From positions 1-64,000 of the IMG/VR virus record IMGVR_UViG_3300032236_000803: a stretch of 64,000 nucleotides of DNA. One strand, written 5' to 3'. Shown piece after piece: positions 6,439-6,628 of this stretch. Made by a program: the position numbers and the translations under genes. Under the pieces are notes generated by a model that saw nothing but the letters and a program-made list of their open reading frames with translations, made no database searches and was not told the origin of the DNA. Numbering within the stretch: position 1 is the first letter of the stretch; each line of letters opens with the position of its first letter. The stretch is from a virus.

Positions 6439-6628
6439 ACAGGATACATTTTTACGCGCTCTACCAATTGAGCTACCGTTCCATCAGAAGCATACTGTTA
6501 CAATAACTAGAATTGGGTTCAGGTGTTATCGCTAGTCAGGGTGCTCAATATGCTTTTGGTGGAACGGACTGGACTTGAACCAGTAACCACGACCTTACAC
6601 GGGTTAATATAATTGCAGAAAATATCCT
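6439..6628 (-). ncRNA. Structured RNA motif copy 5: circularly permuted tRNA mimic with CCA (Y-RNA/YrlA-like)
   Basis: In order: AGGATAT-TTTCTGCAA, ACC-CGTGTAA-GGTCG, T-arm ACTGG-TTCAAGT-CCAGT, CCGTTCC-ACCA, 74-nt insert, GGAACGG-TA, D-arm GCTC-AATTGGTA-GAGC, GTATCCT-GT. Confidence 0.85.

What the first reader, a model, noticed from the sequence alone, without database searches (positions are those of the whole stretch)
6439..6628. Circularly permuted, nearly complete tRNA with internal CCA inside motif copy 5
The 3' half comes first (ACC-CGTGTAA-GGTCG, TGGTT, T-arm, CCGTTCC-A-CCA), then a 74-nt hairpin insert that extends the acceptor helix, then the 5' half (GGAACGG-TA-GCTC-AATTGGTA-GAGC-G-CG). 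Joining the 5' half ...GCG to ACC... rebuilds a perfect cloverleaf with anticodon stem CGACC/GGTCG and 7-nt loop CGTGTAA (nominal UGU, non-canonical G33). The permutation point is inside the anticodon stem, where the handle is grafted. Established: two-piece tmRNA genes and permuted tRNA genes of some algae and archaea use this 3'-half/insert/5'-half order. Inference: RNase P and 3' trimming could give a two-piece RNA with a free CCA end tethered to the Ro-like protein.
Basis: partly seen in the sequence, partly recalled or inferred. Interest (0 to 1): 0.85.

Follow-up and report, generated by a model that had tools for sequence, protein, structure and literature searches.

The report
Back-to-front tRNA mimic, buried CCA
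A lake phage encodes a complete tRNA look-alike written back to front and mounted on a short conserved "handle", most likely a partner RNA of the Ro60-shaped protein encoded next to it. It is a new variant of the known bacterial Y RNA called YrlA, not a new kind of tRNA gene.

Summary
On the minus strand, 6628..6441 is one 188-nt unit of a tandem RNA array that runs into a Ro60-shaped phage gene (DUF2828/DUF7788, 6371..4926).

The unit holds a complete tRNA-Thr(UGU)-like body in permuted order: anticodon hairpin, T arm, acceptor 3' strand, A-CCA, a 74-nt hairpin, acceptor 5' strand, D arm. Its own ends form the 7-bp stem plus CNGCAA box shared by all units.

- **Re-joined halves:** ARAGORN calls a 76-nt tRNA, against 0 of 2000 shuffles.
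- **Closest relative:** a phage whose protein is 82% identical keeps the unit, with five compensated pair changes.
- **Thirteen related units:** 97.5% pairing, with covariation at 19 of 28 pairs.

This is the published YrlA (Y RNA) layout. Here it has a different handle, a retained anticodon loop and an encoded CCA.

The two-piece, free-CCA idea has a real precedent in M. smegmatis YrlA, and eight related units keep N-CCA. In this copy, however, CCA is predicted to be paired inside a conserved helix. I therefore favour an intact, long-armed tRNA mimic. No RNA data exist.

The scan has met this handle-RNA/DUF2828 system in over 20 other genomes. I found no paper describing it.

The parts
6441..6628 (-). 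Whole unit ('copy 5'), 188 nt: handle plus permuted tRNA-Thr(UGU)-like body
   Evidence: Unit finder. Covariance model R1 scores it 108 bits. MFE fold shows handle, T arm, acceptor plus insert, and D arm.
6622..6628 (-). Handle, 5' strand of the 7-bp closing stem
   Evidence: Pairs with 6447..6441. The U-G pair becomes C-G in L004. The stem covaries at 4 of 7 pairs in 13 units.
6612..6621 (-). Conserved single-stranded box next to the 5' stem strand (ends in CUGCAAU; CAGCAA in most relatives)
   Evidence: C11, G13, C14 and A15 are invariant in alignment A2. The same box lies next to DUF2828 genes in coliphage wV8, mycobacteriophage Lolly9, Listeria phage LP-124 and Vibrio phage KVP40.
6590..6604 (-). 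Anticodon-arm remnant: 3-bp hairpin with 7-nt loop (nominal UGU, G33), plus the 2 nt that pair with 6456..6455
   Evidence: Helix 2 is 87% paired. Helix 3, the long-range pairs, is 100% paired, and both of its pairs covary.
6568..6584 (-). T arm (5 bp, loop UUCAAGU)
   Evidence: G53, U54, C56, A58 and C61 are invariant in A2.
6561..6567 (-). Acceptor 3' strand (7 nt)
   Evidence: Pairs with 6482..6476. Four of the 7 pairs are swapped with compensation in L004. All 7 covary in A2.
6557..6560 (-). Discriminator A plus CCA, internal
   Evidence: Read. Predicted paired except C74. N-CCA sits at this place in 8 related units.
6483..6556 (-). 74-nt hairpin that closes and extends the acceptor helix
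   Evidence: Single copy in the genome. 70 of 74 nt identical in L004, with one compensated pair and one G-U to G-C change. Found only in the window and L004 lineages.
6476..6482 (-). Acceptor 5' strand, G1 at 6482, U at position -1
6458..6473 (-). D arm (4 bp, loop with GG)
   Evidence: U8, A14, G19 and A21 are invariant in A2.
6448..6457 (-). G26, C27-G28 (top of the anticodon stem), then the A-rich 3' linker of the handle
   Evidence: The A run is nearly invariant.
6441..6447 (-). Handle, 3' strand, followed by GUU
6646..6771 (-). Neighbouring unit with a sealed, YrlA-type tRNA-like body (no CCA)
   Evidence: 43 bits with R1.
6781..6830 (-). Neighbouring minimal handle unit
6372..6432 (-). 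Last handle unit, abutting the ribosome-binding site and start codon of the protein gene
   Evidence: The same placement is seen in all relatives inspected.
4868..4918 (-). Handle unit just downstream of the protein gene
4926..6371 (-). 481-aa DUF2828 + DUF7788 protein with a predicted Ro60 (HEAT ring plus vWA) fold
   Evidence: Pfam. PHROG 850 'RNA-binding protein'. The AlphaFold model has pLDDT 69, and the top 13 Foldseek PDB matches are all Ro60/TROVE.
6851..6879 (-). Weak sigma-70-like promoter ahead of the array (8 of 12 consensus letters, 17-nt spacer)
   Evidence: Read. It falls below the threshold of the scan. Relatives carry near-consensus promoters at the same place.

Best explanation
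The element is a Y-RNA-like partner RNA of the phage's Ro60-shaped DUF2828 protein, of the YrlA type.

**What it is (shown).** A tRNA-Thr(UGU)-derived body is written in circularly permuted order. Its acceptor end is closed. Its own 5' and 3' ends form a 7-bp stem plus a single-stranded CNGCAA box, the 'handle'.

**How it is made (inferred).** It is transcribed with three sibling units as the leader of the protein's mRNA.

**How it works (inferred).** The protein docks on the handle, by analogy with Ro60 on Y RNA. The L-shaped tRNA body then serves as bait or tether for a tRNA-recognising factor.

**State of this copy (my lean, about 2 to 1).** The RNA works intact. The 74-nt insert is a conserved extra arm that stacks on the acceptor helix, and the internal A-CCA is buried in that helix. 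The CCA is probably inherited from a CCA-encoding tRNA gene when tandem handle-bearing tRNAs were re-registered into permuted units.
For: **The fold is real**
- The re-joined halves give a perfect cloverleaf. No shuffle does.
- All universal tertiary-contact nucleotides are present and invariant across 13 units: U8, A14, G18-G19, A21, G46, U54-U55-C56, A58, C61, plus an A15:U48 pair.
- Window against L004 shows 16 differences. Ten form 5 compensated pairs, 2 turn G-U into G-C, 4 are unpaired, and none breaks a pair.
- In 13 units, 97.5% of cells are paired and 19 of 28 pairs have double changes. 0 of 500 shuffles reach this, and slid controls give 36-47%.

**It belongs to the YrlA kind**
- Rfam YrlA hits the relatives' units at 34-42 bits, E 4e-6 to 1e-3.
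- The layout matches Chen 2014 and Wang 2018.

**The partner protein**
- The gene abuts the array, and its model matches only Ro60 structures over its full length.
- The handle box travels with DUF2828 genes in phages of Proteobacteria, Cyanobacteria, Actinobacteria and Firmicutes.

**Intact rather than cut**
- CCA is predicted paired, and the extension hairpin has a folding energy of -18.8 kcal/mol.
- The insert is as conserved as the tRNA body and keeps its helix through a compensated change.
- A related unit in L063 has AUUA in place of ACCA. It forms a perfect 20-bp helix under an 87-nt insert whose base resembles this one.

**Origin**
- Synechococcus phage BUCT-ZZ01 has normal-order tRNAs with the same handle closed as a hairpin in the anticodon arm.
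- Model R1 scores the shifted register across two of them at 67 bits.
Against: - No RNA data exist, so expression, ends and protein binding are all inferred.
- The unit has every classical RNase P determinant: a 7-bp acceptor stacked on a 5-bp T stem, A73, CCA and U at -1.
- N-CCA directly after a 7-bp acceptor is kept in 8 distinct related units whose closing loops and stems differ. In the six with short closing segments (8 to 20 nt), five have CCA predicted unpaired and one (L034) has C74 paired. That looks like selection rather than a relic.
- Between the window and L004, 8 of 14 acceptor letters changed but none of A-CCA.
- Normal-order relatives must end in a free CCA.
- M. smegmatis YrlA is cut by RNase P in vivo.
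- Secondary-structure prediction cannot exclude opening of the helix by RNase III or a helicase.
Confidence: 0.6

Rival explanations
1. RNase P cuts before G1 (6482), possibly after RNase III or RNase E opens the long helix. The 3' side is trimmed to CCA (6557). The result is a two-piece tRNA mimic with a free acceptor end, held together by the acceptor, D/T and handle pairings and tethered to the Ro-like protein.
For: - The unit has a 7-bp acceptor, A73, an encoded CCA and U at -1.
- There is a precedent: M. smegmatis YrlA is cut by RNase P in vitro and in vivo and gains CCA.
- Eight related units keep N-CCA, five of them with CCA predicted unpaired.
- Normal-order handle-bearing tRNAs in a cyanophage show that 'handle plus free CCA' exists in this family.
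- The roughly 20-bp near-continuous helix is in the size range that RNase III cuts. This last point is general knowledge, not tested here.
Against: - CCA is sequestered in this copy.
- The insert is conserved and its helix compensated, which is unexpected for a discarded spacer.
- A related long-insert unit has lost CCA.
- Pairing between leader and 3' end is known to hinder RNase P (general knowledge).
- Half of the related permuted units are sealed by loops of 2-7 nt and cannot be opened this way.
Confidence: 0.25
2. The units act only in cis as a structured leader of the DUF2828 mRNA, for autoregulation or stability, and have no function as separate RNAs. On this reading the tRNA shape has no function beyond folding.
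For: - The array lies between the promoter and the gene.
- The last unit overlaps the ribosome-binding site or start codon in every locus inspected.
Against: - Handle units also lie downstream of the gene and kilobases away among tRNA genes.
- The tRNA tertiary nucleotides are invariant.
- Anticodon-type loops are retained with covarying stems.
Confidence: 0.07
3. It is a true permuted tRNA gene. The handle is excised and the ends ligated through a circular intermediate, as in Cyanidioschyzon merolae. The acceptor is then opened to give a decoding tRNA-Thr.
For: - The cloverleaf is complete with CCA.
- L004 has the canonical loop with U33.
- Wang 2018 raise this possibility for YrlA in general.
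Against: - G33 in the window.
- There is no bulge-helix-bulge at the junction. The break point shifts between 1+4, 2+3 and 3+2 within the anticodon stem among units.
- Many sibling units lack CCA, a D arm or an anticodon arm.
- The handle is shared with units that carry no tRNA parts.
Confidence: 0.03
4. It is a two-piece (permuted) tmRNA gene.
For: Rfam's tmRNA_permuted model gives a weak hit at 6376..6604 (18.5 bits, E 0.16).
Against: - The score is far below the gathering score of 47.
- ARAGORN's tmRNA search finds nothing.
- The third acceptor pair is A3-U70, not the G3-U70 alanine identity pair.
- The unit has a full canonical D arm and an anticodon hairpin.
- No tag frame is present.
- Downstream sequence is another handle unit and then the protein gene.
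Confidence: 0.01
5. It is the remains of two decayed tandem tRNA genes and has no function.
For: The order 3' half, spacer, 5' half is what a tandem pair would leave. I do think the layout arose from tandem handle-bearing tRNAs.
Against: - The two acceptor strands pair perfectly and co-vary.
- No substitution breaks a pair.
- The design recurs in many lineages.
Confidence: 0.02

Closest known systems
YrlA, the tRNA-like Y RNA bound by bacterial Ro60/Rsr (Rfam RF02553; Chen et al. 2014, PMC4201824; Wang et al. 2018, bioRxiv 10.1101/312249)
   Same: - It is encoded beside a Ro60-fold protein gene.
- It has the order T arm, closed acceptor stem-loop, D arm.
- The RNA's own ends pair where the anticodon stem would be.
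- The tRNA tertiary nucleotides are kept.
- Several Y RNAs come from one precursor.
- Some cyanobacterial YrlAs also have a much longer acceptor stem.
   Different: - The partner is DUF2828/DUF7788 with no Pfam TROVE match.
- The handle carries a CNGCAA box instead of GNCGAA(N)G.
- The distal anticodon hairpin with a 7-nt loop is retained, whereas YrlA has none.
- A-CCA is encoded.
- A conserved 74-nt arm closes the acceptor.
- The Rfam model does not reach its threshold.
Mycobacterium smegmatis YrlA (Chen et al. 2014)
   Same: It has a 7-bp acceptor stem. In that organism the closed acceptor is opened by RNase P and the 3' side ends in CCA, giving two pieces.
   Different: In M. smegmatis CA is added after cleavage, whereas here CCA is in the gene. 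Here the CCA is paired into a long helix. No processing data exist for this unit.
Thermus phage phiLo Ro60 with Yrl1/Yrl2 (PMC12135203; PDB 9kop, 9l5y)
   Same: It is a phage-encoded Ro60-fold protein with Y-like RNAs encoded just upstream. It is also the best structural match to the window's protein.
   Different: The phiLo RNAs were picked by a CGAA motif and a stem-bulge-stem shape and are not tRNA-like. Protein identity is about 16%.
Class I RNAs of dictyostelid social amoebae (PMC7919456; search pattern in PMC5054030)
   Same: They have a short covarying stem joining the 5' and 3' ends. A conserved unpaired box sits directly after the 5' strand and ends in ACAGCAA. CUG follows the 3' strand. 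The interior is variable.
   Different: They are eukaryotic, 42-65 nt long, have their own promoter element and carry no tRNA-like cargo. Their known binder is an RRM protein. The resemblance is in the handle only, and common descent is untested.
Permuted tRNA genes of Cyanidioschyzon merolae and some archaea; two-piece tmRNA genes
   Same: The gene order is 3' half, intervening segment, 5' half.
   Different: Those mature into working tRNA or tmRNA through a bulge-helix-bulge or defined processing sites. Here the break is a protein-handle graft, and the defining features fail (see the membership test).

Membership tests
YrlA (Rfam RF02553) | Encoded next to a gene for a Ro60-fold (HEAT ring plus vWA) protein | tested here: met
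   The gene at 4926-6371 abuts the array. The top 13 Foldseek PDB matches are all Ro60/TROVE, E 3e-7 to 5e-4, over about 510-545 aligned columns. The model is only moderately confident (pLDDT 69).
YrlA (Rfam RF02553) | Partner protein matches Pfam TROVE (PF05731), the criterion used by Chen et al. 2014 | tested here: not met
   Only DUF2828 and DUF7788 are found at E up to 10. The same holds for the wV8, Lolly9 and BUCT-ZZ01 homologues.
YrlA (Rfam RF02553) | Order T arm, closed acceptor-like stem-loop, D arm, with the RNA's ends pairing at the anticodon-stem position | tested here: met
YrlA (Rfam RF02553) | tRNA tertiary-interaction nucleotides conserved (G18-G19, U54-U55-C56, 15:48 pair, U8-A14) | tested here: met
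   All are present in the unit, and most are invariant in 13 related units.
YrlA (Rfam RF02553) | Ro-binding module with the GNCGAA(N)G motif on the 5' strand | tested here: not met
   There is no CGAA anywhere in the unit. The 5' strand is followed by a CNGCAA box instead.
YrlA (Rfam RF02553) | Covariance-model score at or above the gathering score (69 bits) | tested here: not met
   No YrlA hit at E up to 10 on 6200-7000. Related units score 34-42 bits.
YrlA (Rfam RF02553) | Bound by the Ro protein; modified by TruB and DusA | not testable with these tools
   This needs immunoprecipitation and modification mapping.
Two-piece (permuted) tmRNA | Model score at or above the gathering score; alanine identity pair G3-U70; tag reading frame | tested here: not met
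   RF04321 scores 18.5 bits against a gathering score of 47. ARAGORN -m finds none. The third pair is A3-U70.
Permuted tRNA genes (C. merolae type) | 3' half upstream of the 5' half, re-joining to a canonical cloverleaf | tested here: met
Permuted tRNA genes (C. merolae type) | Bulge-helix-bulge at the junction of the termini; canonical anticodon loop for decoding | tested here: not met
   The junction is a 7-bp stem with 17-nt and 7-nt unpaired linkers. Position 33 is G. The break point moves among related units.
Dictyostelid Class I RNAs | Short terminal stem, unpaired conserved box ending ACAGCAA after the 5' strand, CUG after the 3' strand | tested here: inconclusive
   The architecture and the box match the published pattern. 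This unit has CUGCAA, and most relatives have CAGCAA. Length, promoter and organism differ, and homology was not tested.

The most novel reading that the evidence does not exclude
The DUF2828 protein and its handle RNAs may form an undescribed anti-defence particle that displays a library of tRNA decoys.

- Permuted, normal-order and acceptor-less layouts keep real anticodon loops (Thr, Lys, Asn, Asp and others).
- A subset, including the CCA-bearing units, is opened by RNase P. These present a free, possibly chargeable acceptor end while remaining tethered.
- Such decoys would soak up or redirect host enzymes that attack tRNA anticodons or CCA ends.

On this reading the unit at 6441-6628 would be a precursor of such a split decoy, and its conserved 74-nt arm would be the processing or docking signal.
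Probability: 0.15. Interest if true: 0.85.

Novelty: new variant of a known kind. Interest (0 to 1): 0.6.

Why it matters
Homologues of this Ro60-shaped protein occur in 710 of 50,697 deposited phage genomes. They include FelixO1-like coliphages, KVP40, Listeria and Staphylococcus phages and mycobacteriophages, yet the protein's RNA partners are in no catalogue or paper I could find.

One preprint reports that a Ro60-like protein of coliphage Bas63, encoded directly upstream of the phage's tRNA genes, counters a host defence gene. Its authors guess that some 'tRNA genes' nearby are Y RNAs (10.1101/2024.10.10.617714). I did not verify that this protein belongs to the same family.

This unit shows how far the mimicry goes: a whole tRNA, anticodon loop and CCA included, grafted onto the handle. 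Comparison with relatives gives a clear, cheap experiment, asking which layouts are opened to a free CCA and which stay sealed. That bears on the long-open question of what the tRNA-like half of YrlA-type Y RNAs is for.

Tried and rejected
- **RNA evidence.** One search for public sequencing runs listed no RNA holder, only DNA metagenomes. I therefore did not lay reads. This says nothing about expression.
- **Rfam.** The scan at E up to 10 over 6200-7000 found no ribozyme, riboswitch or named motif in the insert or the handle, only chance-level hits.
- **More copies of the 74-nt insert.** An exact 20-mer in IMG/VR found only the L004 contig. A 26-mer spanning the D arm and linker, searched in IMG/VR and in metagenomes, gave other permuted units but no further insert-bearing orthologue. 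The insert is single-copy in its own genome and matches nothing else in about 100 loci.
- **tmRNA reading.** Rejected.
- **Sequence search of the protein against PDB.** It found nothing. Only the fold search linked the protein to Ro60.
- **Literature.** 'DUF2828' gave only plant and tardigrade mentions. The supplement of Chen 2014 that lists phages is not held, and two Wolin reviews are not held. I could not check which phages they covered.
- **Promoter-like site at 6802..6773.** It lies inside a unit and would truncate the next handle, so I treat it as chance.
- **Complex prediction.** Not attempted, because the tool does not take RNA.
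Full report
**1. What is there**

The feature is on the minus strand. Its elements, in order:

| Element | Coordinates |
|---|---|
| 3-bp hairpin with a 7-nt loop | 6604..6592 |
| Two nucleotides of the anticodon 3' strand | 6591..6590 |
| 5-nt variable region | 6589..6585 |
| T arm | 6584..6568 |
| 7-nt acceptor 3' strand | 6567..6561 |
| A, then CCA | 6560..6557 |
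| Insert, 74 nt | 6556..6483 |
| Acceptor 5' strand | 6482..6476 |
| UA | 6475..6474 |
| Canonical D arm | 6473..6458 |
| G, then CG | 6457..6455 |

- Joining 6482..6455 to 6604..6557 gives 76 nt that ARAGORN calls tRNA-Thr(tgt) with every helix perfect. None of 2000 shuffles is called.
- The sequence carries U8, A14, an A15:U48 pair, G18-G19, A21, G46, U54-U55-C56, A58 and C61. The only non-canonical point is G33.
- In native order the tRNA finders miss it.
- No ORF of 50 aa or more overlaps 6372-6886 on either strand.

**2. Context**

The tRNA-like body sits inside a larger 188-nt unit, 6628..6441. The outermost 7 nt of the unit pair with each other. Directly after the 5' strand comes a single-stranded box ending in CUGCAAU. 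Before the 3' strand comes an A-rich linker, and after it comes GUU.

The same stem-plus-box closes four other units: 6830..6781, 6771..6646, 6432..6372 and 4918..4868.

The array runs straight into a 481-aa gene (6371..4926) with Pfam DUF2828 and DUF7788 and PHROG 850 'RNA-binding protein'. An AlphaFold model built on eight homologues has pLDDT 69. Its 13 best Foldseek matches in the PDB are all Ro60/TROVE structures aligned over the full length. Thermus phage phiLo Ro60 is first (E 3e-7), followed by Deinococcus Rsr, Xenopus Ro60 and human Ro60. Sequence methods alone do not see this relationship.

A weak sigma-70-like promoter precedes the array at 6879..6851. Relatives have near-consensus promoters at the same place.

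**3. Is the fold real? Comparative evidence**

I collected IMG/VR and metagenome loci that either encode relatives of the protein (53-82% identity) or match a conserved stretch of the unit.

*Closest relative.* L004 (82% protein identity) has the orthologous 188-nt unit, 172 of 188 nt identical. The 16 differences break down as follows:
- Five fully compensated pairs: four of the seven acceptor pairs and one pair in the insert stem.
- Two G-U to G-C changes.
- Four changes at unpaired positions, including G33 to the canonical U33.
- No change breaks a predicted pair.

*Thirteen permuted units from different contigs* were aligned (A2), and the permuted cloverleaf plus handle was scored.
- 97.5% of cells are paired.
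- 19 of 28 pairs have changes on both sides, including all seven acceptor pairs.
- 0 of 500 shuffles reach any of the five measures. Sliding the partners gives 36-47% pairing.
- The two long-range pairs that join the end of the '5' half' to the '3' half' are 100% paired and both covary. My selection of units never required them to pair.
- Caveat: I found several units with a script that required handle, T-stem and acceptor pairing. Those three helices are therefore partly ascertained.

*A covariance model* built from A2 then found further units it had not been trained on. One is in the cultured coliphage wV8, at L101:4865-4990.

**4. What it is**

This is the YrlA architecture.
- Chen et al. 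2014 described Y RNAs encoded beside Ro60 genes in more than 250 bacteria and phages. A T arm, a closed acceptor-like stem-loop and a D arm mimic tRNA, while the RNA's ends form the Ro-binding stem.
- Wang et al. 2018 solved the structure. [quoted passage not shown]
- Rfam's YrlA model recognises the relatives' units, but only at 34-42 bits against a gathering score of 69. It does not see the window's unit, presumably because of the insert.

The differences are real:
- The partner protein has no TROVE match.
- The handle has a CNGCAA box instead of the GNCGAA(N)G motif.
- The distal anticodon hairpin is kept.
- A-CCA is encoded.

The handle box goes with DUF2828 genes in very distant phages: Synechococcus phage BUCT-ZZ01, coliphage wV8, mycobacteriophage Lolly9, Listeria phage LP-124 and Vibrio phage KVP40. 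All of those checked have DUF2828/DUF7788 proteins and no TROVE hit. That co-travel is the main argument that the handle is the protein's docking site. Binding itself is inferred.

Following a lead from earlier notes of this scan, I checked the published search pattern for the Class I RNAs of Dictyostelium. It is a 6-bp terminal stem, then a box ending ACAGCAA, then CUG after the 3' strand. The handle has the same design. Homology is untested.

**5. The CCA question**

- The unit has every classical RNase P determinant.
- M. smegmatis YrlA, the one YrlA with a 7-bp acceptor, is cut by RNase P in vitro and in vivo, and its 3' side ends in CCA.
- N-CCA directly after a 7-bp acceptor recurs in eight distinct related units: the window, L004, L009, two in L014, L010-L013, L034 and L095. 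That is 8 of the 12 units whose closing segment is 8 nt or longer. Chance would give about one unit in 64.
- Of the six units with short closing segments, five have CCA predicted unpaired. In L034, C74 is predicted paired.
- In BUCT-ZZ01 two normal-order tRNAs directly downstream of the gene carry the same handle as a closed hairpin of about 35 nt, inside a 52-53-nt insertion in the anticodon arm. They end in N-CCA and pass Rfam's tRNA threshold. So 'tRNA body plus handle plus free CCA' does exist in the family.

*Against it for this copy:*
- A73, C75 and A76 are predicted paired with the four nucleotides before G1 (unpaired probability 0.02-0.04). The helix continues for ten more pairs.
- The insert is 95% identical in L004 while the acceptor next to it changed at eight positions, and its stem keeps pairing through a double change. 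It behaves like a functional arm, not a discarded spacer.
- A related unit in L063 is homologous to the CCA-bearing unit of L034. It has AUUA instead of ACCA, a perfect 20-bp helix and an 87-nt insert. The basal stem of that insert is nearly the same sequence as in L004. Overall similarity is suggestive only, z about 2.9, reached by 1 of 500 shuffles.
- The phages' ordinary tRNA genes encode CCA, including the window's own tRNA-Asn. CCA can therefore be inherited.
- Half of the permuted units are sealed by loops of 2-7 nt.

I weigh this as roughly 2 to 1 for an intact RNA in this copy. Opening by RNase P remains quite plausible for the short-loop CCA units.

**6. Origin**

The three layouts found are all rotations of the same parts:
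- handle open and acceptor closed;
- handle closed and acceptor open;
- handle in place of the acceptor stem (L010:2080-2176).

In BUCT-ZZ01 the covariance model scores the shifted register across two neighbouring handle-bearing tRNAs at 67 bits. A tandem pair of such tRNAs, read from mid-handle to mid-handle, yields exactly '3' half, CCA, spacer, 5' half'. This would explain both the internal CCA and the insert as a former spacer later recruited as an arm. It is inference.

**7. Function**

Shown: the fold, its conservation, and its linkage to a Ro60-fold gene.

Inferred: the protein binds the handle, and the tRNA-shaped body recruits or sequesters a tRNA-recognising factor.
- Anticodon-type 7-nt loops are retained, with stems that covary. 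The loop CUUGUAA recurs in four lineages on four different stems. This hints that the anticodon loop itself is read by something.
- A preprint reports that a Ro60-like protein of the Felixounavirus Bas63, placed just upstream of its tRNA cluster, counters the 'ppl' defence. It does so even when expressed alone. I did not verify that this protein is the same family. The gene position matches its wV8 homologue.
- A Listeria phage has an RtcB-like ligase 1.3 kb downstream. This recalls the Salmonella rsr-yrlBA-rtcBA operon cited in the papers above.

**8. Verdict**

The permuted tRNA on a Ro-like handle is right. The free CCA is unproven and, for this copy, less likely than not.
- It is a new variant of a known kind (YrlA-type Y RNA).
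- The wider handle-RNA/DUF2828 system has been met by this scan in more than 20 other genomes, with concordant readings. I found no paper or Rfam family for it.

Noticed in passing
window 6372-6432 (-); also L105:1969-2008 (KVP40) and the last unit in every locus: The handle unit nearest the gene always abuts or overlaps the ribosome-binding site. In KVP40 it overlaps the start codon itself. This looks like autoregulation of the DUF2828 mRNA by its own product.
   Followed up: partly
L001:4093-4205 and L001:4223-4336 (Synechococcus phage BUCT-ZZ01): Two normal-order tRNA-like genes end in N-CCA and carry the handle as a closed hairpin inside a 52-53-nt insertion in the anticodon arm. Both pass Rfam's tRNA threshold (37.6 and 50.7 bits). 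This is a cultured phage in which the free-CCA layout can be tested.
   Followed up: partly
L010:2080-2176: This is a third layout. The handle takes the place of the acceptor stem, and the D arm, a Lys(UUU)-type anticodon arm and the T arm follow in normal order.
   Followed up: no
L101:4865-4990 (coliphage wV8): A sealed permuted tRNA-like handle unit lies under an annotated 'hypothetical protein 48' on the opposite strand (L101:4832-5089). That ORF call may be spurious. Three further handle units are interleaved with the phage's tRNA genes.
   Followed up: partly
L103:2942-3197 (mycobacteriophage Lolly9): Three handle units lie directly downstream of the 'Ro-like' gene. The middle one is a sealed permuted tRNA-like body that Rfam YrlA hits at 37.7 bits. 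None is annotated.
   Followed up: partly
L104:4827-5476 (Listeria phage LP-124): An RtcB-like RNA ligase gene lies 1.3 kb downstream of the DUF2828 gene, and three handle units lie just upstream of it.
   Followed up: no
L063:1174-1374 versus L004:2239-2426: The first ten pairs of the long acceptor-closing inserts are almost the same sequence in two lineages whose proteins are only about 60% identical to the window's. The apical parts differ. This may be a recognition or cleavage site and is unexplained.
   Followed up: partly
window 3559-4466 (-): Just downstream of the array and gene lie a macro-domain 'phosphatase' (PHROG 335) and a small GatB/YqeY-like 'tRNA amidotransferase' (PHROG 1460). 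Both fit an RNA or tRNA-metabolism neighbourhood.
   Followed up: no
handle units in general: The handle has the same design as the published pattern for Dictyostelium Class I RNAs: a terminal stem, a box ending ACAGCAA, then CUG. Pfam DUF2828 is also cited in plant papers, so a eukaryotic protein partner is worth checking.
   Followed up: partly
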